From assembly GCA_000165345.1 (NCBI GenBank), contig CM000436.1:960001-1024000 (forward strand): DNA of 64,000 nucleotides, given 5' to 3'. Every line of letters begins with the position of its first letter. Position 1 is the stretch's first letter. Shown in pieces: positions 3,807-64,000 of the stretch. The notes under the pieces are model-generated. The model saw nothing but the letters and a program-made list of their open reading frames with translations. It was not told the DNA's origin and ran no database searches. The translations under genes were made by a program, and so were the position numbers.

Positions 3807-3890
3807 AATGTAGATAAAAAGTTCTACCTGTACTTTTTATTTTTCCTAAATAGTAATATAATAAATTTCTAGAATAAGATATTTTTTAAT

Positions 3891-29358: not shown

Positions 29359-31122
29359 ATGGCTTCTCTCAATGATATTAGTAAAGGTTCACAGGGGAGC
29401 CAGTTAATAGATTTAAATGGCTCTGAGAAGAGAAATGACTATATGGACTACATGTCACATTTGCAAAGTAGTGCTGCTCAATTGAGATATGAAAATAGTG
29501 TTTTAAAGAATGATAATGCAAATTTAGTATCAAAGTTGGACAGAGCTGTGAGTAAGAGTAGAAATGGAGTAGAAATACCAGAAAATGCAACAACAGCAGA
29601 AATTGCGGAGGCATTTGAAAAGTTGAATGATGAAAACTGCAGATTAAAGAGAGAAATGGAACGTTTGATACGATCAAATACTAGATATAGGGTTGCAATG
29701 CAAAATAGAGATCCTAGCTTAATTCCCTCTGAAGAACAAGATAAAAGTTTTTTTAACTCTGATGACTCTGGAGGAAGGTTATGCCAGTGTGAATATATAC
29801 TTAATGAAATTCTAGAAGCAGTTTCTTATAAGTTAGAAACTTATGAAAAGCATATCTGGGAACATAGATTAGCTACTTTAACTAGTGAAAGAGATGAAAT
29901 TGCTGTCCAGAATATTTCACTAGTAGATAGGCTAGCTGAAATTGAAGCAATTATTAAAGTAGATCATGTTCTTGCTGAAAGATTTAATGTTCCTCTAGAA
30001 GGTTGTGATGAAAAGAATCAAATATTAACTTTACACCGTAAGTTGGGCTTTGCATTGGATGTAAACCAGCAGCTCGAAAGAAGATTAGCTTTTGAAACGC
30101 AGCTTTCAAGATCTTGGCAAAGTAATATGCATACAATTGTTAGTGAGGTAAGTTTTTCCTAAAAAGTTTGCCATTTGCTAACTTTATTGTGACCAATTTC
30201 TAATTTCCCGCCACCCCACATTGCAATTATTACATGCATTTGCAAATTATTTGCACATTTTATAGTTAAGGCAATATATGTATGAACTTGGATCTATTAT
30301 AAAACAGTCAAATGGTTGTGAGATATTTAGAACTGTAAATTCTTCAGGTAAGTTACATATATGCAAACCAAATCCTTATAAAATGAAAATTATTTAACTG
30401 AAATTCTTTTTTTTTCAGACCAAACTGGTAATAAAGGCTCTGGAAGTATTGTGGAAGCTCCTGGTTACAGAAAAGCTGATAGAGAAAGTTTAAAGTTATT
30501 AAGGCTGGCAAAACAAAGAATTGAGGCTGATACAAAGAGATTAGAAACATGTAATAAAAGAATTATAGAATTAGAAAATGAGGTTGCATCATTAAGGGTA
30601 CGTAATCATTCATATATATATAGGGAAGGAGCAATAAACCATGATGCTGCAAGCAGAGGAATCATGAACGAAATTCTACCTCCACCAAAAATTTCAGCTC
30701 AGGATTTGACTGGAGGTCTAGTCAGATCATTTTCAAAAGCTCAAAATGACAATAATCTATTTTCTGCTAATAAAGGAGTACTCAATGTTAAATTGGATAA
30801 AGTTGATGAATCTGAAGATACTGGTAATAATACTCATGTCAAACAGGAAGTACTTCAATCCGAGGTTAATAAAAATTCAAGTAGCATTTCTCAAGAAAAA
30901 AACAAAAGTTCTAATGAAATTCATGATCTTGAGGAAGGAAATAGTACTCATAGAAGTCATCATAGTAGTCATCATAGTAGCCATCATAATACTCACCGTT
31001 CTCATACTCAAAGTCATTCTTCAACTCATAGAAGCCATCAATCTGGATCGTCCAATGATCATCATGGCCCTAAATCATCAAAATCTCATTCATCATCGTC
31101 ACATTCTAAGAAAGATAGATAG
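29359..31122 (+). CDS. coiled-coil protein with His/Ser-rich C-terminus, 3 exons (29359..30147, 30266..30347, 30419..31122), about 524 aa
   Basis: Track ORF 1 ends in GAG|GTAAGT. The exon from 30266 to 30347 is 82 nt, flanked by TTTTATAG and GTAAGT, and open in only one frame. It joins in phase to ORF 2, which has no ATG of its own (the track start is GTG). The first ATG of exon 1 is at 29359. Confidence 0.5.
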
Positions 31123-31466
31123 ATTATTAATATACTAATCATCTAATGCTTGCAGTGGTTATTTTCTGATTATGGAAAATAATATGAAATAATAAATTTA
31201 TTTCATATTAAATTTCTGGTTTTGCTCTATATATTACTAATTGCTATAACTTTATTATTAACATTAATTTTTTGTTTAACTTTTGTTCTTTTCAGGTTCA
31301 ATCAGTAAAAAATAAAAATTCAGTTTTTGCTACAGGATCAGTTACTACATCATGCTCAATATCATCCACAGAAAACGGTAAGTTGAAAAACACATTTAAT
31401 ATAAAAATTTATTATTATTAATTATATTAATTCATTATCAAATTTAATATAGGTATAAGATACAGT

Positions 31467-37499
<6,033 letters not shown>

Positions 37500-37545
37500 T
37501 TTTAATTATAAATAATTGCATGCACAAGAATAAATATAAAATAAC

Positions 37546-37598
37546 TGTGTGTGCGAGAGAGAGCGCGCCAACATTGCATGTTTTTTTTTTTTTTTTTT
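37546..37598. repeat. (TG)n(GA)n-GCGCGCC element followed by T18 in a convergent 3-prime intergenic region
   Basis: tgtgtgtgcgagagagagcgcgccaacattgcatg is followed by 18 T. Confidence 0.6.
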
Positions 37599-37905
37599 GA
37601 ATGGAATTGAATTGAATTATAATATAAACTTGAACAAAAGTTATTATTTATTGAAATGAAAGAAACAATTGTAATGCAATTTTTTTCTTTCGTAATTACA
37701 GTAGGAAATATTTGATTTAATTATTATAATAGAAGAAGAAAAAAATTAGAATAGAAAATATATAGAATACCATAGTTAATAAATATATTTATTTAGTGAT
37801 TAATAAAGCCTATAAGATAAATTTAAATTAGTTATTTAATATATTAGCGAGGTTTTGAGCAGTTTATCAATATTGGTATTAATTTTAAACAATTATGTAA
37901 TGGAG

Positions 37906-43922: not shown

Positions 43923-44751
43923 AGATTGTTTAAAAATGATTTAAGCCGCGATATTGTATTTTTAGGTCAGTGTAATAATTGACCTTAAATTTCAATCTCT
44001 CGCCTAATTACTTATTGATTTTAATCCCACTTTAAGTAGTAGTCTAATACTTCTTATTTTCTTAATATAATACTTTCCCTATTTTTACTCAAAACCCTAA
44101 TTATGTGTTATTTCACCACATATTAAATCTATCTTATTTAAATCGTTTTTTTTTTTCATTGCTAATCACACAATTTCCGGAGTGAACGGAGACATAGACG
44201 TATCACATTCGTCACATTGACTTTTGGTTATAAAAAAAGTAGTAATTGTGGAAAAAAAGAGAAAGTAGAGGTAAGCAGAGGTTATCTTTGCAAAACATAT
44301 AGGATATATTTAAACATATAAATTAGTAAAATCTCATTTTTCTTTGTATCTTTAGAGCACATCTTTTTAATTTTTTACTTTAAAGTTTTTTACATGTTAT
44401 ATGCACACGTCTATGATTAGATTTTTGTAATAGAGTATTTTATTACAAAAAATAATACATGCATAACTTTGCTTTAAATTCTCAGGCTTTAGTTTTAATA
44501 GAAAATATATTAAGAATTTTCAAATTCTTTTTTTTTTTTTTACATATTTTTTGCAAACTAACAAACTTTAGAGGTTAATTTGGTAGTTAAATTGTGCAGG
44601 CAGAATTGTTTAGCTGCAAATTAGAAAAAATATTTTATTTTGCTGTGTTAATTTTTTTAGTTTAATATTCTAGATTTTTTTCCTCGTCATACATAATCCT
44701 TATATTATCAAAAGCTGTTAGCATACATTTGTTTTTCTAATATCGGTAATC

Positions 44752-47900: not shown

Positions 47901-50900
47901 ATTCATATTCTAATCCAACTACTACTACTACTACTACAAGAGCAATCGAACAAGCATTGGGTGTAAGTACCAGGGTAACTAATTCAAAGATTGATTTTAA
48001 TAGTGAGGAGCTTGGTGGATTATTTAATACAAGAAAGTTACAACATATGACAAATTTTGAATATAATGATGAACATTTTTTGGAATCAGAAGAAGTTATT
48101 ATTACAAATATTTGTGATCTAGAAATTAGTGTTTATTTGAATAATAGGCCAATATATGGATCTCCATTTACTCCATATATAGATAATTTGGTAGAAATAC
48201 GAAATTGGTATAGAATTGTGGATTTAAATTCTTCTGATAGTACTGAAAGAAAGTTTGAAAAGTTATTAGAATCTGATGATTTTGAAGGAGCAATAAAGTT
48301 GATGAAAGAGTTAGAAAGAAAATATTTGCATGATTTTAAGGTAATATTAGAAGAATTGGAGAGAGATCCAACAGAACAAGAGCAAATTTTGGATAATGTT
48401 GGAAAGATTTCAAATGAACAAGATCAATGGACTTTGTTACAAAAGAATAAACAACGTTTAGAACAAATTATTAGAGATAATAATGATCGAGAAAATTTGA
48501 TTTTAACATTTGGAAGGTTTTTATTGAAAAGATTAGAGAGTCAAATGATAAGAAGACAAAAAGTTGATTCTGATTTATCATCATATAGAATATTAAAAGA
48601 AAATAATTTGGAACCATTATGTCATAGTTTAGAAGTTGAATATAATAAATTCCAACAACAAAGAACAAGAGAATTAATACGTTTAGTTTCATTATTAGAG
48701 ACAAATAAATTAAATTCATTAGAAGAATTAATGGAATTATATCAATTAATTGCTGATGAATTAAGATCATTAGGACGTGGAAATTTGGCTAATCAATTTG
48801 ATTTAGTTAATAGATGTTTAATAGAAGAGCAACAATTAACAAATATACGTGAAAGTTTACAAAGAAAGAGTGAAGTATTAGCAAAAATGGATGAAATGGT
48901 AACAACTAGAGAGAAAGCATTAGAAATGATTTTATCAAATTATAATCAAGCAATAAAAATGGAAGAGGATCATATTGAAGAAGAAATTGAGAAAATTAAA
49001 GTTGATATTTTAAGAAAACTAAATTTTAATCCAAGTACTGGCGTACAAACTGAGGATTCATTATCATTTACAGATACTATTATTGGACCATTAATATTGG
49101 ATCGAATTTTAGGTAATGATGAAAATCAATCAAAAAATGATTTTAATAATAATAATAATAATCATAATAATTATCATAAGAGTAATTTTAATAAATATTT
49201 TTCTATTATTGATCATAATAATAGTGATTATGCAATTCATGTTATGAAAATGTATTGGAAACCTTTAATGGAATGGGATTTAAAATGTTTTGTTAAGATA
49301 TTAAAACAATGTCCAAGAATATCTATTTGTTTGAGAGAATTATTTTCATATTTTGCAAATACAAGATGGAAGAATAATGAAACACAAATGAGTATATATG
49401 GTGATTTAATTCATAAAAGTGATAATGGTAATTATTATTCATATAAAAATAATAATTTTGGTAATAATAATGAAATAGAAGAAAGTATGAATAATAATAA
49501 TAATATTAATAATAATAATAATAATATTAATAATAATGATAATTTAACATCAATTGATAATAATAATCACAAATTTTCAAATAAAGAAAATATAAAATCA
49601 ATTAGTAAATGGACAGTAGGAACACCACTTGTTACATCAGATGATCCAAATTTAAGTATTTATAGAAAAGCAATGGGTATAACCAGAAATGGATTTAAAA
49701 GATTAATCATTTCATTAAATTTATCACCAGAATTAATTAAATCAGAAAAAACTATTGAAGGATTATTTCATAAATATAGTATGGAAAGAACAACAAGTAA
49801 TATACATTATAGTAATAAAAATGTTAGAGTAATAACACAAGAATTATGGATACCTTTATTAAGAGAATTAGCATATATTAATGCATTAGTACGTTTTGAT
49901 GTATTAAGACAATCAACTTTAGGTAGTAATGCATTATTAAGATTATATAAAAATATTAATGATTTTACAGGAAAAGTTGATTATTCAGTTTGGGAAAATA
50001 ATATATCTAGTACTAATATTGGAGAAAAATTAATGATTAATTTAGAAAGTGATGATTTTAAAGGATTAAGTCAAAATTTAATTAATTCAAAAAATAAAAT
50101 AAATGATGAACAAAATAATCAAAATAATATGAATAAAAATAAAAATAATAATAATAATAATAATAGTAATAATAATAATATAGAATTAGGAGGTAATCAT
50201 AAAAATCATGTATTACAATCAGGAGTTGCAGTAACACAAGATAATATTAAAGATTTAAATAGAGTAACTGCATTTAGACATTTTTGTGAATTACATTTAA
50301 TACCATTATATAAACAAGTTTATGGAAATGAAGATTTTACAACAATGTTAATGTTACCATTTTCTAAAATATTATCATCAGAACAAGATGAATTATTACG
50401 TGGATTAGATGCTATTGATTTAAAAGATAGTGGAGGAACATGTATTAATTCTGAAGAAATTTCTGGAGATAATTCTAATAAAGAATTAATAGAAAATAAG
50501 AAAAGATATTTATCAAGCCAATCAACACATGAAAAGGTTGAATGTAAAATTAATAATTGTTTAAAAATTGTTGTATCACAATTAAAAATGAATATAGCAT
50601 CAGCAATATTTATACAATTAGCATCAAAAAGTATGAAAGAATATGAATTTGATATAACACGTGAATTAGTAGAATTTAAAAGAATATCAAATGATGATGA
50701 TATATTAAAAAATTATTATGTAACAGAATTTGATTATATTAAACCTTTACAATTACATGAATATTTAACAAATATAGGTATGATACCTGGCCATATAAGT
50801 GGTAATGAAATGCATAACGTTGTAGAGAAAGTATTATCATCTAGAGAAGAATATTTACCAAAAGAATTACCAGTTACTTATAAATATCCAAAATCATTAT

Positions 50901-51052
50901 CATTTCCAGGATATATTGAAACTTTATCAATGTGTATAGCTAAAGGTATAGTAAATAAATTATCAGGATCATTATGGAGTGAGGGAGATATAAGAACAGA
51001 AGTTATTGAACATTTGGTATTATTTAATTTATATGATACATCAAGAATATAG
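44911..51052 (+). CDS. large protein with filamin-type Ig repeats, 2 exons (44911..44949, 45092..51052), about 1999 aa
   Basis: The track ORF starts at TTG with no in-frame ATG for 146 codons. Upstream, ATGAATCTGAATCTTGCAATTGCTAATTTGGGAGTTGAG|GTAAGT joins in frame via TTTTTTTTATTAG|GTT. Filamin-like repeat ends are YLLRVTMDGLPIGGSPYDVTITP and NNRPIYGSPFTPYID. Confidence 0.6.
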
Positions 51053-51061
51053 AAAATATTA

Positions 51062-51610
51062 TTAAAATAGAGCACCAGCTCTTTTAGCAGCATTAACAGC
51101 TGATAAAGCAATATTAGGTGTGGAAATACTAACTCCAACAGAACTTCCATTTAATATAATATTACCATGATCTTTATTTTCATCCATCATGGAATCTTGT
51201 GTAGAAATAACTCTTAATGCAGCTTTTTTACTGCTTTCTTCAATTTCACCAGCAAGAATAATTTCATCCAGAATAAAATAAGCTTTGTGGAAATTGAATA
51301 TAAGATCAAGTTCACAAACATTTCCAAAATATCGATCAAGTACTTCAACATAATGATGTATAATTTCAAGAGCAAGAAGTTCATTATCATTTTTATCAAT
51401 ACAAGCAACAAAATAAAGGCTTGCATATCTTTTAACAACAAGTGTGTGCCCTTTCCAATCGATAAAATTACATAATTTACCTTGTCTATTAATGATCATT
51501 TGCGTAACTTCTTTGATAAATCTTTTACGTTCTGATTGTTGATAAGATGAATACCATTTTTCCAATCTAGTTTTGCCTTGTCTGCTGATAAGTAGAAAGA
51601 ACCTGAACAT
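51062..51610 (-). CDS. AP1S: adaptor protein complex sigma subunit (AP-1 sigma-like) with a short C-terminal extension
   Basis: MFRFFLLISRQGKTRLEKWY...VVKRYASLYFVACI...EIIHHYVEVLDRYFGNVCELDLIFNFHKAYFILDE aligns with AP1S1. Confidence 0.75.
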   Translation of the reverse strand: MFRFFLLISRQGKTRLEKWYSSYQQSERKRFIKEVTQMIINRQGKLCNFIDWKGHTLVVKRYASLYFVACIDKNDNELLALEIIHHYVEVLDRYFGNVCELDLIFNFHKAYFILDEIILAGEIEESSKKAALRVISTQDSMMDENKDHGNIILNGSSVGVSISTPNIALSAVNAAKRAGALF

Positions 51611-52071
51611 AATTACTTTAAAAGAAAAGATACATATGTATTTATATGTATCTTTTTTTTTTTTTTTTTAAATCAAGTATGATTAATAAATAATAATTAT
51701 GAATACAAATATATTTTCAATATTGGGTATAATATTGAATTAAGATGAAGGAGAGGGGAAGAGATAAGATTGATAAATATTAAATATATATATATATATA
51801 TAAATGGATAATTAGGTTAGTCTTGGTTTATAATTAATAATATTATGTACAATATATTAATATATACGATCTTTGAGTATTCTTCTTTTTCTTTCTTTAA
51901 ATAAAATAATAATAAATTATTGAATGAATTACTTCAAGAAGTAAAATTCAATGTTGAATGATGGATGGGGGGCAAAAAAAGAAATATATAAGTCAATTGC
52001 AATTAATTAGAAAGTGGGGAAGGAAAAATAATAAATAAATTACATGGGAAAAAAAATAAATTTGAGAGAAT

Positions 52072-52084
52072 ATGGCGCCATATT
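52072..52084. promoter_or_regulatory. palindromic ATGGCGCCATATT between the divergent AP-sigma and RPS29 genes (a second site, TAGGCGGGAACATTTT, lies at 52234-52249)
   Basis: Direct reading. Confidence 0.5.
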
Positions 52085-52469
52085 TATTTATTCTTAAATC
52101 TAATTTAATATTTTTATTAAGAATATAAAACATGTTATATTTAATTAAAATTTCTTTTTTTTCCTGAGAAATGTTCAAGAATTAATAATATCGTTTATAT
52201 TATTTTAAATTAATTACACCAGTTATAGGGCTTAGGCGGGAACATTTTAAGACACGAGTTTGAGACGGAATTAGGTCAGAATGAATAATTAAGGAATAAT
52301 AAATGATAAATAAAAAAGTAGTAAGGTAATAAATATAATATACAAAGCAATAAATAAATTATTAAAAAAAAACAGGCGGTAAATTAAAGGGTGTATATTT
52401 TGAGAAAAAAAGAGCAAATGTCACAAGGGAGTTTTAATTAATTAAAACAAAACTTACATTAATTTAAGA

Positions 52470-52640
52470 ATGGGCTACAGCAAGGTTTACAATTCACATC
52501 CAAAGACTTACGGTCAAGGCAGCAGATGTTGCCGTGTCTGTTACAATCATCATGGCTTAATTAGAAAGTATTCACTGAACATTTGCAGACAATGCTTCCG
52601 TGAAAGAGCAGAAGCAATAGGATTCCACAAATATAAGTAA
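52470..52640 (+). CDS. RPS29: 40S ribosomal protein S29 (eS29), 56 aa
   Basis: [56 protein letters not shown] has the C-x2-C...C-x2-C zinc ribbon and a length typical of eS29. It is absent from the ORF track because it is under 60 aa. Confidence 0.85.
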
Positions 52641-53543
52641 ATTAGTATTTTATATTGGATTGGATTCTGAATTAGTCTTCAGATCTGTAATATTGTTGAG
52701 TCTTCGTTAAAGTACGGTTTACTGGTCTAAAATGTTTATTGCGTGGAGTCTATTGAAGGTTTTGAACAAGAATAATAAATAGGAAAGTTTGTAGAAAAGA
52801 GACTTTGACCAAAGAAACAGAGCTAATGATGATGGTATTTTGTATACAGTATATGTGAATTTGATTTAGATAAGGGTATAATCATATGATTTTACCTGTT
52901 TTTTTTATATTTATATTGGATAACTAGTATTAAAGGTTTGAAGATTTTAACATATATGTATAGATTTATCAGGACTTAGCAATTAGATTTTGATTAGGTT
53001 CCTTATTTAAGGATTATTTAATCATTTTTTAATAGGAATTTACACTTTCTTTTCTCGTTAAAGATGACAGGAGTTGTGGAAATGAGTTTTTGAAGTACTT
53101 ATTTTTGTCTTTTTATTTTGTTAAGTTTTACTTAGCAATTCTACCGGTCATAGATTAGAATTTGGATTAAATATGTGTTTTTTTAATAATACTAACTTTG
53201 TTTCCTCGTTCGTGGTTTTTTTTACAAAATTAATATTTATTTTTGATCCTAATAGACTGGAATATAACTCAAGAGAAGTGAGATTGGGTTAATTTTTTTT
53301 CCTATTTTCATCTTAACTTGTACATTATATACTGAAAAGCAATAGTAATTAATTAACAGAATGAGAGTAAAAGAATACTTTAAGCTCAATTCCAGAAATA
53401 AATATATCATAGATATTGATATATCATAAGATTAAAACAAAAGAAGTAGGTACGTTGTAAGAAGAGGAAAAAATGAATTTATGATTAATTTGTATTGTTT
53501 TCCATGTAAAATAATTACTAAATAAAATTAAATTTTGGCAAGT

Positions 53544-53559
53544 TTTGGCGCCAACTTTG
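53544..53559. promoter_or_regulatory. TTTTGGCGCCAACTTT upstream of Rpn3
   Basis: Direct reading. Confidence 0.5.
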
Positions 53560-53797
53560 AGTGTAATAAGATTATTAAATACCCCTCAAAGTAATTGCTT
53601 TTCCTTACAGCGGATTTAAAAATAAGCAAGAAATATTGTGAGCAGCTTAAGGAAGTGAGAATTAAAGATAATTAGGTACAAATAGTAGAGGGTCTTGTGT
53701 ATTCTCTTTATTCATAAGGAAAAACTTGAGAAATTGAGTTTGAGAAAATAAAAGTGAATAATAATAATCTGCGATTGGTAGGAAGGTGAGGATAAAC

Positions 53798-55423
53798 ATG
53801 GAAAAGGAGAAGAACCAAGATAATGTAGAAAAGACTCAAGAAGCTACAACAAAGCAGAATGTGGAGAATACTGTTGTAGTTGATAAGTTTGTTCTTGAGT
53901 TAATTTCTTCAATGGATTTAATAAAAAGAGGCGTTGAGTCTGCAGATCAAAGATTAATTGGGCGTGCTTTGAGATTATGTAGTTTGAGTAGAATTAGTTT
54001 AAAGAGGAAGTATGTATTAGAGGTTTTGGATAATATTGAGAAGATAATAAGTACTGAAGAATCAGAAGAAATAAATATTACAATATTGAAATCATTAAGA
54101 TCAAACTTAGATTTAGAGTTTTTAAAGAATGAGAATGATGTAGAAATGAAAGATGAATCAGACAATAATACAGAAGCAGAAATGAAGAAGACTATTAATG
54201 CAATAGAAAAAATGGATTGGAATTCAATGAAGCCCTGTTTAAAGGAATGCATTACACTTTTGGGCCTTTTAATCCTTATAAGAATGTATAGTGTTAGAGC
54301 AGAGAATTATATAGCAAAAAAGGAGAAGTCTTTAGAATTAAGAAGAAATAATTTCCAGGAATGTTTGGAATTCTCTAAGATTCTGTTTGATTATTGTAGA
54401 AGAAGTACAAGCCAAACAATGGATCAATTAATTTCAAAAGTTTTATATTTTTATTCAAGAATTCACGAAATTTGTGGAGAATTCACAAATATAAGAAATG
54501 ATGTTCTGGAGAGTTACAGAAATGCTGTATTAAATCATAATAATATGACCCAGGCAGCATGTATTAACTTGATTCTTAGAAACTATGTCTTGACTAAAAG
54601 ATATGATTTGGGATTAAAAGCATTGGAAAAGATGGTTTATCCAGAGAACCTTTCATCTGGAATACATCAAGCGAGATATCTTTATTACTCAGGGAGAATT
54701 TACTCTGCTCAACTTGAATATCAATCGGCTTTTAATAGTTTCACCCAGTCTCTTAGGAAGACTCCACAGACAAAAGGAAGAGGATCACTAAATTTTGCTC
54801 TTTCTGTTCAGAAGTTTGCAATTGTGGTTCAAATGCTCATGGGAGAAGTTCCAGATCGTTCCATTTTTAATTCAACCGATTTAAGAAAAGGACTGGTGCC
54901 ATATCTTGAGCTTGTGAAAGCAGTAAGATCTGGAGACATGAAAGAGTTTGATTTAAATCTCCAGAAGAGAGGAAAAATATATGAACGTGATGGAACACTT
55001 TCATTGATTAAAAGGCTAGCTCATAATGTCATTAGATCTGGGCTTAAGACTATATGCTCATCTTATAATCGAATATATCTGGATGATATTGCTAAATATT
55101 TTGGTTGGGACAATTCCCACGATGTTGAAGGAGTTGTGTCTAAAGCTATTTTAGATAAGGTTGTTGATGCAAAGATCAATGACGATATTAAATGCTTAGA
55201 GAGTCAACACAAGTGTGAAACTTACGGCTCAGAATCAATGCTCAATAATCTCCATTCTCGTATTGCTTTTAGTCTTCTCCTAAGAAGTAATGCTATCAAA
55301 GCTATGGAATATCCGCAGAACATGCCTATTAACAACGAAAATAATGATGATGAAGAAGCCAGGAGACTATCACAGGAAGAAATTGAGGCTGCTGTCAATA
55401 GCGTTGACGATGGAATGATTTAG
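53798..55423 (+). CDS. RPN3: 26S proteasome regulatory subunit Rpn3 (PSMD3), PCI domain
   Basis: RYLYYSGRIYSAQLEYQSAFNSFTQSLRKTPQ...FALSVQKFAIVVQMLMGEVPDRSIF aligns with PSMD3. The first ATG is at 53798 (the track start is GTG). Confidence 0.8.
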   Translation: MEKEKNQDNVEKTQEATTKQNVENTVVVDKFVLELISSMDLIKRGVESADQRLIGRALRLCSLSRISLKRKYVLEVLDNIEKIISTEESEEINITILKSLRSNLDLEFLKNENDVEMKDESDNNTEAEMKKTINAIEKMDWNSMKPCLKECITLLGLLILIRMYSVRAENYIAKKEKSLELRRNNFQECLEFSKILFDYCRRSTSQTMDQLISKVLYFYSRIHEICGEFTNIRNDVLESYRNAVLNHNNMTQAACINLILRNYVLTKRYDLGLKALEKMVYPENLSSGIHQARYLYYSGRIYSAQLEYQSAFNSFTQSLRKTPQTKGRGSLNFALSVQKFAIVVQMLMGEVPDRSIFNSTDLRKGLVPYLELVKAVRSGDMKEFDLNLQKRGKIYERDGTLSLIKRLAHNVIRSGLKTICSSYNRIYLDDIAKYFGWDNSHDVEGVVSKAILDKVVDAKINDDIKCLESQHKCETYGSESMLNNLHSRIAFSLLLRSNAIKAMEYPQNMPINNENNDDEEARRLSQEEIEAAVNSVDDGMI

Positions 55424-55730
55424 CTCCTCAAGCCGCAATTTCACTTATCCAAAATTCTTGAGGAAGCTCTTTTTAATTTCTTTTTCTTTAAAAAATATTT
55501 ATCAAACTTCTTTATTTACTTGAATAATAATATATTTCTTTGTTATTTATTATTAAATTACCTGTCCTCTTTTGCCACTATTCATCTCATTTATTTAAAT
55601 TAATTGTTTTATTTTATATTGTCCACATAAAATAATACATTAATTACTTTGCTTGCACACCGGTATAGATTTTCTGGCGTTTGCATGAAATAAATGCAAA
55701 AATAGTTACGTGGAGAGTAATGTTGCACTC

Positions 55731-55749
55731 TTGGCGGTAAATTGTGGGG
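55731..55749. promoter_or_regulatory. TTGGCGGTAAATTGTGGGG upstream of Timeless
   Basis: Direct reading. Confidence 0.45.
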
Positions 55750-56090
55750 TAGTTAAAATATGTAAAATAAAAGAGTAGTAATAAGTTGATAAAATAACGA
55801 TAAATAAGAAGAGAGGATTATGTTCCATGAAGATTGAGTAGCAATTGATTATTGATTGCTTTTAGTGTAGCTTAAGTTGTTGTTGGTAATTGTTTAAGTA
55901 AAGTTTTTTTCCCCCTTAAGGTTTTAATTATCGAAACAAATTAAAATATAATTGGAGAATTACATTACTATTTAATTAGTTGTGGATATTTCAAGATAAC
56001 TGGCTTTATTAAAAGATAAATAAGATAGTTTAACAATTTATATAGTAAAAAAAGAATAATTAATATTTGGTAAATACTAATAAAAAAAAA

Positions 56091-59000
56091 ATGGAAGAAT
56101 CGTATACTAAGGACAAAGAGTCTATAGCAAATGAGTTGCTTCACTACATTAATTCTTTAATTGAGCCTTTAGCTGACGAATCAGTTGATATTTCTAAAGT
56201 CAATCTAGACAACGTTCAAAATGAATTGAATTTTGGGGGAAGGAAAAGTATATCCAAAATTGAAAAAAGCAATGGGTCAAAACAGGCATGGGTGGTTGGC
56301 GTTGACGCTATTGATGATTTGAGAGATATAATTAAGCTCCTAAAAAGAGAGATTGAAGGAGGAGCAGATTCTGAAAGATATGCTGTAACAATGTTGTGCG
56401 AATGGAATGTTGTGAATACTAAATTGATTCCACTCTGGAATATATCAATAGATAATATAGAAATACAAAGTTTGATCATTCAAGTACTATTTTGGTTGAC
56501 AATTCCTCCAGATGAAAGCTGGAGATCTTTTCGTTCAAAGACAATGAAATGCAGAGCATATTTGAAAAATATGCAAAAAGTAAAGTTTTCATTATGCTCA
56601 ATTTCGTTTTGGCGAGAAATTGTAACACTATATAAGAAGCTTAAGGAAGTCATTCAAAGTCATGGCTTTTTGAAGGAAGATCATGAAGATCTTAGGAATA
56701 GGGAAGAACAAATAGCCTTTTTGAAGGAACAAGATAAAGAGCAGGAAGAAGAGACAACCAAAGAAGTTCATGAAAATGAATCAAGAGATTTTGCTGAGGA
56801 AAATGAAGAAGTTGATGAAAATAATAGAAATAAAATGAAGAGATTGGAAAGGCTTGAGATCATCCGTAATTTAAGAGATGAAATTATTATGATTAATGAA
56901 AGAGCTGAAAAGAGATGCAAACAATTTAAAAGTAGAATTGGAATGATTAAAGGATTGTTAATACAAACTTTAAAGATTCAAGATCAAGTAGTTACAGAGT
57001 CTTTAGCTAATTTCGGAGTAAGATCGGTACATTTGCTCTTAGTTAGTAAGTTAGTTCAAAGTGGAATACTTGAAATTGTTCAAGATGACAGTGAAAGTTT
57101 ATTGAATGATCAAAGGAACTTTTGTAGTATTGATGGCTCTGATGCTGCAGCTCCGTGGAGAATATTAGAATATATATATGGCCTAGTATGTAATATTCAG
57201 CCAATTGATTTTGTTAATGAACTTTTTGGGACTAAGAAAAAATTAACAGAAAATGAAATATTAAAAAATTCTTTGCTTGAGAAGATGAAAATGATTAAAA
57301 AAAGTAGCTCAAGTGGCTTTACTTCTAACTCATTAATGAATAGACATTCTAGATTCAATCCAGAATTGGCCAGAAGAAGGATTAAAGAAAATAATGGTGG
57401 GACCACTGGCCAGGTTGTTAATTCTAAGCGTGTTTCTTCACAAAGAGTGAGTAAATATAGGCATGATTTTGATGTTGATGAAATATTTGAATATATAGAT
57501 ATATTTATTGGAGCAATGCAATCAGCTGGAGGAAATATTCATTGTCTTGAGATGTATGGTTATCCTACAATAGAAGGAACTATAGCAAGCATTGATGGAG
57601 TTCAATCACAATGTTATGATGAAATAGTACAGACATTGGGAGAATTCTTGGAGAATTTTTTCAAATCTAAGCTTCCAATTTTAATTGAGAAGATATTTTT
57701 AATGCTTAGAAATGGAAGTGAAAAACATACATTATGGGATATTTCTAGGTTAATCAGTTTAATGACATGGGTACTTGCATATAAAAGAACTGTATTCTTT
57801 GAAGTTACAAAAAGTGAAAAAGATAAACAAGTCATTAAAGAAGAGTTAACTAGATTATTAATGGAGACAAAATATCTTTTAGATACTAAAGAAAATATGG
57901 CAATCGATTTTATTTACTCAACAATAAAACTCCATGCTAGAGAGAAGTTATTAAAGAATAAATCTCATAAAGTTGCTAGAATCGCAATACGTTGTTTGAA
58001 TGAGCAATTAAAGATAATACATCTAGTATCAAATTCTGAAGAAGAAGCAATCAGAGATTTGGGAGTATCTTTGATAGCTTTTATTATTAGGTTAGATGTA
58101 ATGAATTGCTTATCTTGGATATTGAAGCATTATACAAAGACTTCTCATCATCCAGAGTTATTCTTATATTCAATTGAAGTATCAAATCGTTTGATTAAGC
58201 TATTTAGTAAGCTTGGTGGAGAAACTTTAGTAAATACTCGAAGAAGAAGAAGGGACAAACCAACTAATATGAAAGATTTTAATGACGAGGATTATGATCA
58301 AGATGAAGAGCTTTCAGGATTTAGTGAAATCTATTATAATGAAAAAACTAAGTTAATGAGTTTAGATGAAATGATGGGTGATTATTGTGATGGAAGAATT
58401 GTTTCGAATTTAATGCTTATTGTAAATAATTATTCAACAAATCATTCAAATATTAATTGGCATACTGCAAGACTTGCAAGGAAAATTATTACAACTCGTC
58501 CTCCAGGAGAAGTATCTAAAGTGGGAGAAGATGGTCGTGAAGAACCCTTTATGCAATTATTTTGTGGCTTGTTCTTTCAATTGTCATATTTTATAACTTT
58601 TGCACAAATATTAAGTGATAAGAGTTTTCTTAATCATTCAAAAACTGACAAAGGAGCACAGGATATTATACTATTATCAAGACATGTAATACACCAATTT
58701 TGGGAAGTAGCCAAGGTGAATCAGTTTGTTTTTATGGAATTATTGTTTTCAAAAAATTCTGCAAGAGGACTTGGTTTAGCAGATCCAGAGAGACTTAAAT
58801 CCATTTTTACTGATTATGAGGAAGGGATAGATGCAGCAATTGTTAATAGAATGGAGACTACAGGAAATGATGATGTATTTGAAGCAAGAAGTTTTGTTAA
58901 GAATAAGATTAACAAGGAAAAGCAATCAGCATCAAATTGGACAAAGGAGGATGATGAAGAATTGCTTTCACTATATGCTCAGTACGAGGAAAATCCTAAA

Positions 59001-60989
59001 TGTATTTCAATTATTGCAAGTTTATTATCTGATATAAAGACTGAAAGGTCTGTAAAGAAGAGGTTGAGAGATTTGGGTAAGATATCTAATGAAGAAGATG
59101 AAGAAGACCAAGAAGAAGAGAAGAATATGAGTCAAACAAAAATTAATTCTGATTTGATATTTGGAATTATTGGATTTCATAATATTTCCTTAGAAGAAAT
59201 TAATGAAGATGAATATAGTTTTGATTCAAATATTATATTAAAGGAATTACTTGAGCTTTTAGAGGAATCTCTTACTACAAAGGAAATTTTTAGTGATGGT
59301 CAAATTGATGAAATTCCCATTGAGATTCCCTCAAGCTTACCAATTACATTATTGGATGATAAAAATTATAAGTTGATTATGTCATCTTTGGGATTAAAGG
59401 ATCCAAGAAAAGATCAAAGTTTATGGATGATTCCAAAAGAATTAACTATAGAAGAATACAAAAAGAATATTGATTTGTTTAGAGAATATATAGAAAAGGA
59501 TATATTTGAATTAGAGGAAATAGCTTATAATAATAATGATAATCACACATATAATTCAAGCAATTCTAACTCTGGAGTTGAGAATTTAAAGTATTCAATT
59601 AAGAATTTGAAGAATACAATACAAGATTTTATAGAGGATTCTGAGTTATCAGGTGAAATTTCTAATATAATTGATCATGAAATTCCTATAGAAAATGGAC
59701 TATTACATTTGATTTCAAGTGAACTAAAAGTAATTATTGGAAAAAATAATAATGTTGATAATTGGGAAAGAACTGAGTTGGATGATTTATGTTTTTGTTT
59801 ATCTCAAGAAAGATTGAATATTTTGGGGATAAGAAAGGAGTTTGATAAGATCTATGAATCATTGACTATGTCAAAGTTATTACATTTTCTTGGTTTTAAA
59901 AAGACAAGGATTTCTAATGATGTTGACTTTTTAGTTCATTTAGATAGAGGAATAAGAAAGAAAGATTCTAATATATTTGAAGGAGGTGAAGAAAATAATA
60001 AGACTAGCTTATTTGATGATGATTTGGAAGATGATTTATTAGGAAATGATAATATGAATGATTCTTCAATAAAGGGTTGGATTCTTGACTTTGAGAAGAT
60101 TAAACTTAATGAGTTTAAAGAGAGAAGTAAGATATTCCAAGAATTAGTGATTGGAATGACTGATATAAAGTTAAACATAGGAAAAGATTTGAGTAGGAAT
60201 AATACTTTTTCAAAAGAGACCATTTCTAGAATTTGTTTGGGGATTTATAATTTCAGAAGAAATACTAAGGATTTGAAGATTTTACATCAGATTGTAACTG
60301 TTTTGGATAAGTATTTGTTTAAACAAGGAGATCAAGGTAATAGTGACTATTTGGTAGATATTTATGATAATAATGATTTAATTAGTATTGATGAGTATAC
60401 TATTCAAATAATGGAATCTTTGAATTGTCAAAAAGACGAAAACAATAATTGGTCTATTAAAAGCTTTATTGAATCTTACACTTACGAAAGAATCAAAGAA
60501 TTAAGAGATTTATTACTTAAACTTATTGATCTGGAAATTGTTGAATTAAAAAGATTCACAGAGAAAGTCACAGGAAAGAAACTTAAAGTTAATAAGGAAA
60601 ATATTAGATCAATGAACCAAAGCAATAAAAAAAGGAAAGCCAAGACCTTTATAGAAAAGAATGAGTTAGAGGAAGAAGAGGATGATGATGATGATAATGA
60701 TGATGTTGATAATGATGATGATGTGAAAGGTAAATTGGTCTCTGAAAAAATTATGGATGGAATTGAAGATGGAATTGAAGATGATATTATAGATGACATC
60801 ACAGATAAAATTGATGATAGTATTAACGCGTATATTATTGATGAGAGTGATGATAAATGGAAGAAAAACTGGGAAAACCTTGAGAAAAGAATGCTTAGTG
60901 TGGAAGATGAATGTTCATTAAGTGAATTAGATGAAGATATTGGTAAGATTGATCAAATACCAGATAATTTATTTGGAGAGGATGATTAA
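56091..60989 (+). CDS. TOF1: Timeless/Tof1/Swi1 replication fork protection protein with an acidic C-terminus
   Basis: The N-terminal DDLRDIIKLLKRE...MLCEWNVVNTKLIPLW matches the Timeless N-domain. NQFVFMELLFSKNSARG matches human NQKAFVELLFWKNTAV. A D/E-rich tail is present. The first ATG is at 56091. Confidence 0.7.
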   Translation: MEESYTKDKESIANELLHYINSLIEPLADESVDISKVNLDNVQNELNFGGRKSISKIEKSNGSKQAWVVGVDAIDDLRDIIKLLKREIEGGADSERYAVTMLCEWNVVNTKLIPLWNISIDNIEIQSLIIQVLFWLTIPPDESWRSFRSKTMKCRAYLKNMQKVKFSLCSISFWREIVTLYKKLKEVIQSHGFLKEDHEDLRNREEQIAFLKEQDKEQEEETTKEVHENESRDFAEENEEVDENNRNKMKRLERLEIIRNLRDEIIMINERAEKRCKQFKSRIGMIKGLLIQTLKIQDQVVTESLANFGVRSVHLLLVSKLVQSGILEIVQDDSESLLNDQRNFCSIDGSDAAAPWRILEYIYGLVCNIQPIDFVNELFGTKKKLTENEILKNSLLEKMKMIKKSSSSGFTSNSLMNRHSRFNPELARRRIKENNGGTTGQVVNSKRVSSQRVSKYRHDFDVDEIFEYIDIFIGAMQSAGGNIHCLEMYGYPTIEGTIASIDGVQSQCYDEIVQTLGEFLENFFKSKLPILIEKIFLMLRNGSEKHTLWDISRLISLMTWVLAYKRTVFFEVTKSEKDKQVIKEELTRLLMETKYLLDTKENMAIDFIYSTIKLHAREKLLKNKSHKVARIAIRCLNEQLKIIHLVSNSEEEAIRDLGVSLIAFIIRLDVMNCLSWILKHYTKTSHHPELFLYSIEVSNRLIKLFSKLGGETLVNTRRRRRDKPTNMKDFNDEDYDQDEELSGFSEIYYNEKTKLMSLDEMMGDYCDGRIVSNLMLIVNNYSTNHSNINWHTARLARKIITTRPPGEVSKVGEDGREEPFMQLFCGLFFQLSYFITFAQILSDKSFLNHSKTDKGAQDIILLSRHVIHQFWEVAKVNQFVFMELLFSKNSARGLGLADPERLKSIFTDYEEGIDAAIVNRMETTGNDDVFEARSFVKNKINKEKQSASNWTKEDDEELLSLYAQYEENPKCISIIASLLSDIKTERSVKKRLRDLGKISNEEDEEDQEEEKNMSQTKINSDLIFGIIGFHNISLEEINEDEYSFDSNIILKELLELLEESLTTKEIFSDGQIDEIPIEIPSSLPITLLDDKNYKLIMSSLGLKDPRKDQSLWMIPKELTIEEYKKNIDLFREYIEKDIFELEEIAYNNNDNHTYNSSNSNSGVENLKYSIKNLKNTIQDFIEDSELSGEISNIIDHEIPIENGLLHLISSELKVIIGKNNNVDNWERTELDDLCFCLSQERLNILGIRKEFDKIYESLTMSKLLHFLGFKKTRISNDVDFLVHLDRGIRKKDSNIFEGGEENNKTSLFDDDLEDDLLGNDNMNDSSIKGWILDFEKIKLNEFKERSKIFQELVIGMTDIKLNIGKDLSRNNTFSKETISRICLGIYNFRRNTKDLKILHQIVTVLDKYLFKQGDQGNSDYLVDIYDNNDLISIDEYTIQIMESLNCQKDENNNWSIKSFIESYTYERIKELRDLLLKLIDLEIVELKRFTEKVTGKKLKVNKENIRSMNQSNKKRKAKTFIEKNELEEEEDDDDDNDDVDNDDDVKGKLVSEKIMDGIEDGIEDDIIDDITDKIDDSINAYIIDESDDKWKKNWENLEKRMLSVEDECSLSELDEDIGKIDQIPDNLFGEDD

Positions 60990-61049
60990 ATATGATAATT
61001 ATAGTGGACTAATGTCCAAATTAATAATAATAAAAAATATGAATTAAAG

Positions 61050-62777
61050 TTATGACAAGTTGGGGTGTTTTGGAGCATATAATTTAGATTTCTTCTTTGA
61101 GCTTGATCCAACAAATTTGATTTCTCCACTTTTTGTTTCCATAAAACCATCTGGAAGCTCCTCAATATTGTAAGTTTCAAGAGAAGCATTGGAGAATCCT
61201 TGAAATTGGTGTTTTCTTTTCTTTCCAAAAGCAGAAAGAACTCCATTATTACTTGGATTAATTTCAAGATTATCATCATAATAAGCAATAATACTTGAGT
61301 TATTGAGAGCAACAAATATTTGATTAATTTCGTGAGACCATTCAAATGTGGTAATTAACTGGTTATTTATATTAATAAGTTGTTTATGGTTTTTATTTTC
61401 AGCTGAACCAATTAATGAATTTATTTGAAATGAAACTAAAGAACTTTTAGTACGATTACTAATATTTCTATTTTTGGAGTTATTTGAAGTCATATCTTTA
61501 ATTAATGTTGAAGATGTTACGATACTTGTTCCACATTTAGAGAGAATCAGTTTTGAGTGTTCATTTCCATCACTTGGAAGATTTTTAATGGTTTTAAGAG
61601 GATTATTGGCTTTTCTGATATCCCAGATTTTGATAGATTTATCAATAACTCCTCTACTTGCTAAATAATGATCTTGATCTTGATTGTATTTAACAAAAGT
61701 GATATCAGAAATACTATTAATATTTGCATTTTTGTCAAAATGATGTGCATCTCTAATAATAATGGAAGGAGTTTCTGAATATAAATTACCACTTCTTGAG
61801 AATATTTGAATGGATCCATCAGTACAAGAAGCAGCAACCATTTCGCCTAATGAAGAAATACATAAAGAATTGGTTTGAATAGAAGAAATGTTTAGGTTTC
61901 TTTTATCTAAACATTTCATTACAAATGTACTAGGAATATATCCATCAACTCCAAATGGATCACTATTTAGATCAAAAAGACGAATAGTATTATCAATTGA
62001 GCAAGTAAAGAAACGATTATAGTTTATAGGATCCCATTTACAACTAACAATCATATGTGTATGACCAGGATTTGATTTAACAGACTTAACATATGGATCG
62101 CCTTGTACGGTACCGGTAATAAATTCGCCATTACTTTGAAATATTCTACAAATAGAATCACCACAGGCTGCAAGAAAAAGATTTCCATTTTCATTAAATT
62201 CAACTTTTTTTATGGAATGATTTTCTAATGGACAAATTACTTTATTTGGATTCATATCATTTTCATATAAATTATTGAAATCATATATTTCAATTTCTCC
62301 ATTAATCACTCCACAAATCATTCGATTACCTTTATTAGATACAGAAATGGATGTTACAGGTTTTATTTTATTATTTTCATCTATATTTTGATTTGAATCA
62401 TCTTCAGATTTTCTGAACTGAACATATTGAGCTACTGGGTATTCAATCATTGTATTTTTTATCACACTTTCCATTTGTTTCCGCAAGTTAATAATATTGG
62501 CTAAACTATTGATTCCATCTTCTTCATCGTCATTATTATTATTATTAATATTATTATCATTATCAGATTCATCTTTGGATCTTGTTTTAAGTTTTCCACG
62601 GCTTAAACTTTGCTCAATACTTTCATTAATTCTAGAATCTTTAAGATTTTGTGAATTTGATTCATCTGAAATATCTTTATTTGATTTATTATGTCGTTTT
62701 GAAATATATTTTTCATCATCTTCGCTCTGACTTGATGATGAATAGTCTACAAGGGAAATGCTTTTATTAGATTTCAT
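61050..62777 (-). CDS. WD40-repeat protein with an Asn/Asp/Ser-rich N-terminus, 575 aa
   Basis: WD-like blocks include SCKWDPINYNRFFTCSIDNTIRLFDL and IKIWDIRKANNPL. A true ATG is present. Confidence 0.6.
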   Translation of the reverse strand: MKSNKSISLVDYSSSSQSEDDEKYISKRHNKSNKDISDESNSQNLKDSRINESIEQSLSRGKLKTRSKDESDNDNNINNNNNDDEEDGINSLANIINLRKQMESVIKNTMIEYPVAQYVQFRKSEDDSNQNIDENNKIKPVTSISVSNKGNRMICGVINGEIEIYDFNNLYENDMNPNKVICPLENHSIKKVEFNENGNLFLAACGDSICRIFQSNGEFITGTVQGDPYVKSVKSNPGHTHMIVSCKWDPINYNRFFTCSIDNTIRLFDLNSDPFGVDGYIPSTFVMKCLDKRNLNISSIQTNSLCISSLGEMVAASCTDGSIQIFSRSGNLYSETPSIIIRDAHHFDKNANINSISDITFVKYNQDQDHYLASRGVIDKSIKIWDIRKANNPLKTIKNLPSDGNEHSKLILSKCGTSIVTSSTLIKDMTSNNSKNRNISNRTKSSLVSFQINSLIGSAENKNHKQLININNQLITTFEWSHEINQIFVALNNSSIIAYYDDNLEINPSNNGVLSAFGKKRKHQFQGFSNASLETYNIEELPDGFMETKSGEIKFVGSSSKKKSKLYAPKHPNLS

Positions 62778-63188
62778 ATAAATTCAATATAATTAATATT
62801 TATATAAACTTATTGATATATGTATATATATCAATGTAATTCTTACTATTTGTACTTGTATTTAGATTTTCTAATATTGTATATTGAAAGAATATTGAAT
62901 TAAAAATTATTTGTTATTAATATATTTTTTTTTTTAATTAAATTAGTTTCACTTATTCCCGGGTATAGCTAAAATATGAAAATTCTATTAATTCCCCATT
63001 ATTACCCAATAATTAATAAATTTGTAATCGAAAAAAAAAAATATATATATATATATATATACATATTTATATTTATATTTACATTCCCACAATTAATTTT
63101 AAAAAAGTTGGCAAAAAAAGTATATAACAAAATAATTAGCTCATAATACAAATATTTAAGCCATATTATTTAAATCAAATTACTTAAT

Positions 63189-63879
63189 ATGTCTGTATTA
63201 GTTACTGTTGGTACCACCAAATTTGATTTACTAATAAAACAAGTTGATAAAGTAGAATTTCTTGATCAATTTTAGAATTGGATATAATAATTTATGTATT
63301 CAATATGGGAGGTAATGTAAAATTTCAACGCCACGTGTTTTTATTATTTATTGCATGCATGCAATAACAATAAAAACACGTGTATATTACGTAATTGTTA
63401 TTTAAAAAAATAATAATTTTTTTTAGTGGGGAATATGTTCCAATACCAAGAAAAGTTAAACATAGTAAAATTTGTGATAATATTATTGGTAATAATAATG
63501 AGAAATTTCTTGAAATTAAAGCAATACCTTATATGAAAGAGATTATATATTTAAATTATGATCTTATAATAGGTCATGCAGGGGCTGGTACAATACTAAA
63601 TTCTTTAAGAAATAATGTAAGTTTTATTTATTGGATTATATTAATAATAGTCCAATTATATTAAGTTATTCAAGTTAAAAAAAAAATTATTTGAAATAAT
63701 GAAATAATTAATTTATTACTATCTTAACAATAAACTTATTTAACTTAAATACTTAGAGAAAAATGATTGTTGTAATAAACAAATCTTTAATGGATAATCA
63801 TCAAGCTGAGTTAGCAACACAACTCGATAATAATAAATATCTTATTGCTATTGATAATGTTAATGATTTAATTAACACA
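63189..63879 (+). CDS. ALG13: ALG13 (UDP-GlcNAc transferase subunit, GT28 C-terminal domain), partial. Exons 63189..63311 (apparent +1 frameshift), 63427..63616 and 63757..63879. The gene continues beyond the window.
   Basis: MSVLVTVGTTKFDLLI matches the ALG13 N-terminus. DLIIGHAGAGTILNSLRNN|KMIVVINKSLMDNHQAELATQL matches the ALG13 core across a GTAAGT intron. All donors are GTAAGT or GTAATG. Confidence 0.65.
63332..63382. repeat. 51-bp near-perfect inverted repeat CACGTGTTTTTATTATTTATTGCATGCA|TGCAATAACAATAAAAACACGTG inside ALG13 intron 1
   Basis: The arms are reverse complements with one mismatch and one indel. It is centred on TGCATGCATGCA and flanked by CACGTG. Confidence 0.85.
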
Positions 63880-64000
63880 GTAAGTTATCTTAATAATTAT
63901 TAAAAAAATCATTCTAATTTATTAAAAATATTAACAATTTTATTAATTCCTTAATTTCATATTAATTTATATAATATTTCAAACAAACATATAATTTCCA

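What the first reader, a model, noticed from the sequence alone, without database searches (positions are those of the whole stretch)
63256..63311. Apparent +1 frameshift in ALG13 exon 1 at a T4 homopolymer
Frame 0 from ATG 63189 reads MSVLVTVGTTKFDLLIKQVDKVEFLDQF, which is ALG13-like, then hits TAG at 63273. The +1 frame continues the ALG13 alignment (RIGYNNLCIQYG against human SLGYNRLILQIGRG). It ends at a GG|GTAATG donor whose phase (2) exactly matches the next exon (S-GEYVPIP... against human GTVVPEP). Deleting one T from caaTTTTag (63270-63273) restores a single ORF of the right length. The cause could be a sequencing or assembly indel, a recent pseudogenisation, or a site of ribosomal frameshifting or transcriptional slippage.
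Basis: partly seen in the sequence, partly recalled or inferred. Interest (0 to 1): 0.5.

Follow-up and report, generated by a model that had tools for sequence, protein, structure and literature searches.

The report
Two-base assembly error in Cryptosporidium ALG13
The broken reading frame in the first exon of the Cryptosporidium parvum ALG13 gene is real in this sequence, but it comes from two missing bases found only in this assembly, so it is almost certainly a sequencing error rather than biology.

Summary
The ORF from ATG 63189 stops at TAG 63273, and the ALG13 match continues in the +1 frame to the GT donor at 63312.

The window is Cryptosporidium parvum chromosome 8, IOWA type. DNA from seven other C. 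parvum sources (2 NCBI assemblies, 5 read-run assemblies), three C. hominis assemblies and C. ubiquitum all read CAA CTT TT(A/G) GAA TGT GGA (…DQLLECGY…), or a synonymous variant, without interruption.

The window lacks two bases: the C after 63269 and the G after 63278. The T4 run is the same length in every C. parvum and C. hominis sequence, so this is not homopolymer slippage. Deleting a T gives the wrong peptide (FRI instead of LLEC).

Those two deletions and a T→G change at 63430 are the only non-homopolymer differences private to the window across all 64 kb. They lie within 161 nt (P≈2e-5 for chance clustering).

The literature reports that the Iowa-II model of this gene (cgd8_4083) is truncated to 121 aa, against 198 aa in IOWA-ATCC. 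That is the length expected if exon 1 is unusable.

Verdict: a local base-calling or assembly error, most likely in the 2004 Iowa II reference. It is not a pseudogene and not programmed frameshifting. Interest is low.

The parts
63189..63311 (+). ALG13 exon 1 (start codon to the phase-2 donor), frame-broken in this window
   Evidence: The homologous exon in L001 (3001-3125) is 2 nt longer and open, and is part of a model that translates exactly to P0001.
63269..63270 (+). Site of the first missing base: every other sequence has a C between these two positions (CAA-C-TTTT)
   Evidence: 7 of 7 covering C. parvum loci; C. hominis x3 and C. ubiquitum also have the C.
63270..63273 (+). It has the same length in all C. 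parvum and C. hominis sequences, so it is not the lesion.
   Evidence: the other sequences read CAACTTTTAGAA or CAACTTTTGGAA, also with four Ts. C. ubiquitum has CTCTT.
63273..63275 (+). Premature TAG created in frame 0 by the first missing base
   Evidence: In the intact sequence these bases belong to the codons CTT TTA GAA.
63278..63279 (+). Site of the second missing base: every other sequence has a G between these two positions (AAT-G-TGG, Cys codon TGT)
63312..63426 (+). Intron 1 (115 nt, GTAATG...TTTTAG). It contains a 51-nt imperfect palindrome at 63332-63382.
   Evidence: model check; DNA hairpin -19.6 kcal/mol, z -6.5.
63427..63616 (+). ALG13 exon 2. ATG 63533-63535 (Met78) is where a 121-aa truncated model would start.
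   Evidence: PMC9713705 gives 121 aa for Iowa-II cgd8_4083.
63430..63430 (+). Third window-private difference: G where all other C. parvum have T (GGG vs GGT, synonymous Gly). C. hominis has C.
63617..63756 (+). Intron 2 (140 nt)
63757..63879 (+). ALG13 exon 3
63880..64000 (+). First 121 nt of intron 3. Exon 4 (52 codons plus stop) lies beyond the window end.
   Evidence: exon 4 starts at L001 3847, and window position 64000 corresponds to L001 3814.

Best explanation
The window is Cryptosporidium parvum chromosome 8, IOWA type. Most probably it is the 2004 Sanger 'Iowa II' reference assembly. The gene is the parasite's single ALG13, the soluble catalytic subunit of the ALG13/ALG14 UDP-GlcNAc transferase that adds the second GlcNAc to dolichol-PP-GlcNAc. 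In this one assembly a short stretch spanning exon 1, intron 1 and the start of exon 2 carries three local errors: a dropped C, a dropped G 10 nt later, and a T called as G 151 nt further on. The two dropped bases shift the frame by -2 (equivalent to +1) and create a TAG. The organism's real gene is intact and reads ...EFLDQLLECGYNNLCIQYG.... The break is an artefact of base calling, cloning or assembly and has no biological mechanism. Its practical effect is a missing or N-terminally truncated ALG13 gene model in annotations built on this assembly. Shown here: the lesion's exact anatomy, its absence from all other sources, and its clustering with the only other private substitution. Inferred: that it is an error rather than a private mutation, and that the window is the 2004 assembly.
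For: 1. Identity. The repaired protein is 97% identical to C. parvum ALG13 (P0001 = CPATCC_004267), with the next hits in other Cryptosporidium species. The neighbouring 575-aa and 1632-aa proteins are exactly EAK89554.1 and EAK89555.1 of 'C. parvum Iowa II'.
2. Comparison within the species. Seven independent C. parvum DNA sources all read GATCAACTTTTAGAATGTGGATAT and have T at the exon-2 site. They are GCA_031892065.1, GCA_048859185.1, and Logan assemblies of SRR5007564, DRR729237, DRR729226, DRR729238 and DRR729258. Three annotated assemblies carry the exact intact 198-aa protein.
3. Comparison between species. Three C. hominis assemblies and C. ubiquitum have the same uninterrupted 27 nt. 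All seven full-length or N-terminal Cryptosporidium ALG13 proteins keep (L/I)(L/I)xxGY at this point.
4. Clustering. Over the whole 64 kb the window is 100% identical to SRR5007564 contigs (33.8 kb compared). It differs from IOWA-ATCC only in homopolymer lengths and from GCA_031892065.1 by a few SNPs. The only non-homopolymer differences private to the window are these three, within 161 nt. Chance clustering has P~2e-5.
5. Literature. Iowa-II cgd8_4083 is modelled as 121 aa with 2 introns, against 198 aa with 3 introns in IOWA-ATCC, and the locus was not called at all in the first annotation (PMC9713705). 121 aa is exactly Met78 (63533) to the stop, which is what an annotator gets when exon 1 is unusable. 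Frameshift-type discrepancies in the 2004 assembly relative to new reads are documented for other genes (PMC12179316).
Against: No raw reads or traces of the window's own assembly could be inspected, so a real private mutation in the DNA or clone that was sequenced is not formally excluded. The attribution of the window to the 2004 Iowa II assembly is circumstantial. The variant list in PMC12179316 does not name cgd8_4083. That is expected, because the sites lie outside the truncated Iowa-II CDS, but it means no published statement of this specific error was found. Pfam scoring cannot tell the two repairs apart (78.9 vs 77.3 bits).
Confidence: 0.9

Rival explanations
1. A real, private loss-of-function allele: the parasite line (or a subpopulation or clone of it) sequenced for this assembly truly carries two 1-nt deletions in ALG13 exon 1, making it a very recent pseudogene or a segregating null allele.
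For: The sequence as given does contain the lesion. IOWA sublines are known to differ by small numbers of variants, mostly indels: 143 SNVs, of which 108 are indels, between the ATCC and BGF lines (PMC8744675).
Against: Three changes fall within 161 nt while about 64 kb of flanking sequence has no other private non-homopolymer change. The rest of the gene is identical to the intact alleles, with no further decay. The gene is single-copy and conserved with an open frame in every Cryptosporidium species examined. The N-terminal VTVGTT motif region lost by truncation is covered by the Pfam domain (profile positions 2-119 in the full protein, against only 68-142 in the 121-aa form). No other isolate shows the lesion.
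Confidence: 0.07
2. Programmed +1 ribosomal frameshifting, or transcriptional slippage, at CAA-UUU-UAG-A. The peptidyl-tRNA-Phe could re-pair from UUU to the overlapping UUU when the ribosome meets the UAG, as at prfB-type or Euplotes-type shift sites.
For: The heptamer U-UUU-AG-A does offer a perfect +1 re-pairing for tRNA-Phe next to a stop codon (sequence). The +1 frame carries the conserved downstream ALG13 residues.
Against: The site exists only in this assembly. All other C. parvum isolates, including contigs otherwise 100% identical to the window, and all other species have an ordinary open frame here. A +1 shift would give QF-RIGY, whereas the genus-wide protein is QLLECGY, so the shifted product would not reproduce the conserved sequence. 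There is no conservation, which is the defining criterion for a programmed site.
Confidence: 0.01
3. An unrecognised small intron or alternative splice pattern within exon 1 bypasses the shift.
For: Four GT...AG deletions inside 63189-63311 would formally restore an open frame.
Against: They are 13, 49, 55 and 61 nt long, against 115-153 nt for the gene's real introns. They delete part or all of the segment VLVTVGTTKFDLLIKQVDKV: the three longer ones remove the VTVGTT motif wholly or in part, and the 13-nt one removes VDKV. All of them read through a nonsense NFLINF segment. The homologous exon is continuous in the annotated model, which translates exactly to P0001. IOWA-ATCC and CpBGF carry that same protein, and their annotations used RNA evidence (PMC8744675, PMC12179316).
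Confidence: 0.01

Closest known systems
Cryptosporidium parvum ALG13 (CPATCC_004267 in IOWA-ATCC; cgd8_4083 in Iowa II), UDP-N-acetylglucosamine transferase subunit ALG13, Pfam PF04101
   Same: Same locus. The window is identical in DNA across exons 1-3 and introns 1-2 except at three positions. The intron positions and phases are the same, as are the neighbours (CPATCC_004265/004266 = EAK89555/EAK89554).
   Different: The window lacks C and G in exon 1 and has a synonymous T->G in exon 2, so the 198-aa ORF is interrupted at codon 29. The window also ends inside intron 3, so exon 4 is absent.
Documented sequence and annotation discrepancies of the 2004 C. parvum Iowa II reference (frameshift variants against new reads, PMC12179316; ALG13 121 aa vs 198 aa, PMC9713705)
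   Same: Same kind of event: small indels in the old assembly that break or truncate gene models and that newer assemblies do not show. The 121-aa model length is exactly what this lesion predicts.
   Different: Neither paper read here names the two missing bases as the cause of the truncated ALG13 model. PMC9713705 describes it only as variation between annotations.
Programmed +1 ribosomal frameshift sites (E. coli prfB CUU-UGA-C; Euplotes AAA-UAA/UAG sites). This comparison rests on my own knowledge.
   Same: A re-pairable codon (UUU within UUUU) sits immediately before an in-frame stop, with the functional protein continuing in +1.
   Different: It is not conserved in any conspecific isolate or related species, the +1 product does not match the conserved peptide, and the site is created by a deletion unique to one assembly.

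Membership tests
ALG13 / Glyco_tran_28_C (PF04101) | Significant match to the family profile above the curated cut-off | tested here: met
   78.9 bits (cut-off 22), E 5.8e-22 for the frame-repaired exons 1-3; 77.3 bits for the reference-type sequence.
ALG13 / Glyco_tran_28_C (PF04101) | Orthology to annotated ALG13 genes (best hits, conserved synteny and intron positions) | tested here: met
   97% identity to C. parvum ALG13, then 84-55% to six other Cryptosporidium hits. Same flanking genes. The exon model translates exactly to P0001 in L001.
ALG13 / Glyco_tran_28_C (PF04101) | Uninterrupted coding sequence | tested here: not met
   The window has TAG at 63273 and a net +1 shift. [quoted passage not shown]
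Assembly or base-calling error | Lesion private to one assembly and absent from independent assemblies or reads of the same strain type | tested here: met
   0 of 7 other C. parvum DNA sources carry it. This includes SRR5007564 contigs that are otherwise 100% identical to the window over 33.8 kb.
Assembly or base-calling error | Errors cluster locally (a low-quality stretch) instead of being spread like polymorphisms | tested here: met
   All three non-homopolymer private differences in 64 kb lie within 161 nt; P~2e-5.
Assembly or base-calling error | The raw traces or reads of that assembly are of low quality, low coverage or discordant at the site | not testable with these tools
   No access to the trace archive or to read pile-ups.
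Unitary or recent pseudogene | Disabling lesion reproducible in independent samples of the lineage, or shared with relatives | tested here: not met
   Absent in all other isolates and species.
Unitary or recent pseudogene | Further signs of relaxed constraint (additional lesions, elevated substitution) in the rest of the gene | tested here: not met
   The rest of exons 1-3 and both introns are identical to the intact IOWA-type alleles.
Programmed +1 ribosomal frameshift | Shift site and two-frame arrangement conserved among orthologues | tested here: not met
   All orthologues and conspecifics have a single open frame.
Programmed +1 ribosomal frameshift | Slippery codon allowing +1 re-pairing next to a stop or slow codon | tested here: met
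   CAA-UUU-UAG-A: UUU can re-pair with the overlapping UUU (sequence). This is a formal match only.

The most novel reading that the evidence does not exclude
The two deletions are real in the Iowa II parasite stock sequenced for this assembly. That would mean a C. parvum line was propagated through animals with a null ALG13, either without the canonical second step of N-glycan precursor synthesis or rescued by +1 frameshifting at UUU-UAG.
Probability: 0.04. Interest if true: 0.45.

Novelty: not a real feature. Interest (0 to 1): 0.05.

Why it matters
It has little biological importance. The practical value is curatorial. The result pinpoints the two missing bases that explain why ALG13 is absent or N-terminally truncated (121 aa, lacking the region that holds the VTVGTT motif) in annotations based on this older C. 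parvum assembly. PMC9713705 notes that ALG13 is missing from KEGG maps built on the earlier annotation, although that paper attributes the missed call to the gene's introns. Anyone inferring loss or oddity of N-glycosylation genes, or designing experiments from this sequence, should use the corrected sequence (CAACTTTTAGAATGTGG).

Tried and rejected
1. Homopolymer slip at T4: rejected, because the T run has the same length in all C. parvum and C. hominis sequences.
2. Alternative introns inside exon 1: all GT/GC...AG pairs were enumerated. Only four restore the frame, and all are implausibly short and/or delete conserved residues.
3. Using Pfam scores to decide between the 'delete T' and 'insert C+G' repairs: uninformative (78.9 vs 77.3 bits).
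4. Scan of JGI metagenome contigs with a pattern matching either version of the site: 0 hits, so it gave no information.
5. Literature search for the run and assembly accessions (SRR5007564, DRR7292xx, GCA_031892065, GCA_048859185, CP029787): nothing found, so the provenance of those isolates is unknown.
6. Search for a published statement of this specific error: cgd8_4083 is not in the variant list of PMC12179316. I briefly suspected cgd8_1270 (frameshift plus stop lost) might be this gene, but PMC9713705 identifies ALG13 as cgd8_4083, so that idea was dropped.
7. Supplementary files of PMC12179316: none are held.

Full report
**Observation.** ATG 63189 opens a frame that reads MSVLVTVGTTKFDLLIKQVDKVEFLDQF and ends at TAG 63273-63275. 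The +1 frame then reads RIGYNNLCIQYG. It runs to an AG|GTAATG donor (GT at 63312), leaving two bases of a codon. The acceptor at 63426 puts exon 2 at 63427, so the junction codon AG+T gives S, followed by GEYVPIP. Deleting one T of 63270-63273 gives an open frame across exons 1-3 (63189-63311, 63427-63616, 63757-63879). That product matches Pfam PF04101 (Glyco_tran_28_C) at 78.9 bits. The window ends inside intron 3, and the last exon is outside it.

**What the locus is.** The repaired protein is 97% identical to Cryptosporidium parvum ALG13 (P0001, 198 aa, CPATCC_004267). The next six hits are other Cryptosporidium hits at 84-55% identity. The two upstream genes in the window encode proteins exactly identical to EAK89554.1 and EAK89555.1 of 'C. 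parvum Iowa II', equal to CPATCC_004266 and CPATCC_004265. The window is therefore C. parvum chromosome 8, IOWA type. In the homologous locus L001 (GCA_031892065.1), the four exons 3001-3125, 3241-3430, 3571-3693 and 3847-4005 translate exactly to P0001.

**What the lesion really is.** Aligning the window to L001 and to a Logan assembly of run SRR5007564 (L002) shows that the window lacks two bases. One is a C after 63269 (reference CAA CTT TTA) and the other is a G after 63278 (reference GAA TGT GGA). The window also has G instead of T at 63430, a synonymous GGG for GGT. The T4 run is present at the same length in the intact sequences, so it is not the site of the change. The frame goes 0, then +2 for 'L E', then +1. 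The net shift is -2, which is equivalent to +1. The true peptide is ...DQLLECGYNNL..., not the ...DQFRIGYNNL... that deleting a T would produce.

**How general the intact form is.** Seven independent C. parvum DNA sources all carry GATCAACTTTTAGAATGTGGATAT and the T in exon 2. They are assemblies GCA_031892065.1 and GCA_048859185.1, plus Logan assemblies of SRR5007564, DRR729237, DRR729226, DRR729238 and DRR729258. Several of these differ from the window by ordinary SNPs elsewhere, so they are distinct isolates. Three annotated assemblies encode the exact 198-aa protein. Three C. hominis assemblies (CAACTTTTGGAATGTGG) and C. ubiquitum (CAACTCTTAGAATGTGG) keep the same uninterrupted 27 nt. All seven full-length or N-terminal Cryptosporidium ALG13 proteins have (L/I)(L/I)xxGY at this point.

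**Is it an error or a real private mutation?**
- I compared the whole window with other C. parvum assemblies. The window is 100% identical to SRR5007564 contigs over 21.8 kb and 12.0 kb.
- It differs from IOWA-ATCC (GCA_015245375.1) only in homopolymer lengths over 26 kb. It is 100% identical to GCA_031892065.1 over 21.8 kb.
- Differences that set the window apart from every other covering C. parvum locus are only four. One is an intergenic T-run that is one base shorter (about 44528-44541). The other three are the ALG13 changes.
- The three non-homopolymer private differences lie within 161 nt of a 64-kb window. If three differences were placed at random, the chance of such clustering is about 2e-5.
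- Two dropped bases plus one miscalled base in a short stretch, against an otherwise perfect match, is the signature of a local low-quality stretch in one assembly. It is not the signature of polymorphism.
- A 51-nt hairpin-forming palindrome lies between the error sites (63332-63382; -19.6 kcal/mol as DNA, z -6.5). It may have degraded Sanger reads here. That link is my speculation.

**Literature.**
- PMC9713705 identifies C. parvum ALG13 as cgd8_4083 / CPATCC_004267. It reports that the Iowa-II model has two introns and 121 aa while the IOWA-ATCC model has three introns and 198 aa. It also reports that the locus was not called in the earlier annotation, which is why ALG13 is missing from KEGG maps.
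- 121 aa is exactly Met78 (window 63533) to the stop, as I counted from P0001 (sequence). This is the model one obtains if exon 1 cannot be used.
- The finding fits the window being the 2004 Iowa II assembly, and it explains the annotation discrepancy. The paper itself does not attribute the discrepancy to missing bases.
- PMC12179316 and PMC8744675 document that the 2004 assembly shows frameshift-type differences from new reads in other genes, and that such artefacts mislead annotation.

**Rivals.**
- A real private null allele cannot be formally excluded without the original traces. It would require three mutations within 161 nt in a conserved single-copy gene, in a line otherwise identical over 64 kb. 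I give it about 0.07.
- Programmed +1 frameshifting is superficially attractive, because CAA-UUU-UAG-A lets tRNA-Phe re-pair in +1 next to a stop. However, the site exists only in this assembly, and the shifted product would not reproduce the conserved LLEC. I give it about 0.01.
- Alternative splicing: only four GT...AG deletions restore the frame. They are 13-61 nt long, against 115-153 nt for the real introns. They delete part or all of VLVTVGTTKFDLLIKQVDKV, and three of them remove the VTVGTT motif wholly or in part. I give it about 0.01.

**Comparison with what is known, and novelty.** The gene is an ordinary member of the ALG13 family. The frame break is best filed as a reference-assembly error of a kind already documented for this genome. 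Newer assemblies already contain the correct sequence. The only small new point is the exact cause of the truncated cgd8_4083 model. Interest is 0.05.

**What I could not do.** I could not inspect raw traces or reads of the window's own assembly. I could not confirm by direct lookup that the window is GCA_000165345.1. I could not establish the provenance of SRR5007564 or the DRR7292xx runs.

Noticed in passing
window 63332-63382 (ALG13 intron 1); L016-L018 1646-1696; L019: A 51-nt imperfect palindrome (CACGTG...TTGCATGCATGCAA...CACGTG) forms a strong DNA hairpin (-19.6 kcal/mol, z -6.5). In three C. hominis assemblies the same 51 nt are present as the exact reverse complement, so the palindrome is inverted between the two species. 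C. ubiquitum lacks it entirely (45-nt gap).
   Followed up: partly
window 41607-44514 (783-aa ORF at 41571-43922, minus strand, no Pfam hit): Seven SNPs private to assembly GCA_031892065.1 cluster in about 3 kb, six of them inside this ORF. The flanking tens of kb are identical to the window and to IOWA-ATCC. This could be a locally hypervariable or introgressed gene.
   Followed up: no
window 44528-44541: An intergenic T-run is one base shorter in the window than in all four other C. parvum loci covering it. It is the only other window-private difference, and a homopolymer-length difference is typical of assembly noise.
   Followed up: partly
window 63031-63062 and 62926: A poly-A/(TA)n microsatellite lies in the divergent promoter region between the WD40 gene and ALG13. 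Its length varies among isolates (1-5 nt differences), and there is a nearby T/A SNP in 7 of 10 loci.
   Followed up: no
window 49517-49537 and 58250-58252: In-frame repeat-length polymorphisms occur in coding sequence. A 21-nt AAT-repeat deletion in the filamin-domain gene is seen in GCA_048859185.1. A 3-nt GAA deletion in the 1632-aa TIMELESS/SANT protein is seen in DRR729237 and DRR729238.
   Followed up: no
window about 29359-31122 (L003/L004 7893-9656): Two C. parvum assemblies annotate this stretch differently. GCA_031892065.1 has two genes of 267 and 152 aa, whereas IOWA-ATCC has one gene of 524 aa. This is an unresolved gene-model (intron) disagreement.
   Followed up: no
window 30001-38000 and 48001-62000: GC skew is strongly positive (0.15 to 0.36), and AT skew is positive throughout and strongest at 30-38 kb (up to 0.30). 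The runs coincide with long plus-strand ORFs (2010 aa, 1959 aa, 1640 aa) that are purine-rich on the coding strand. GC content drops to about 23% in 34-38 kb and 48-52 kb.
   Followed up: no
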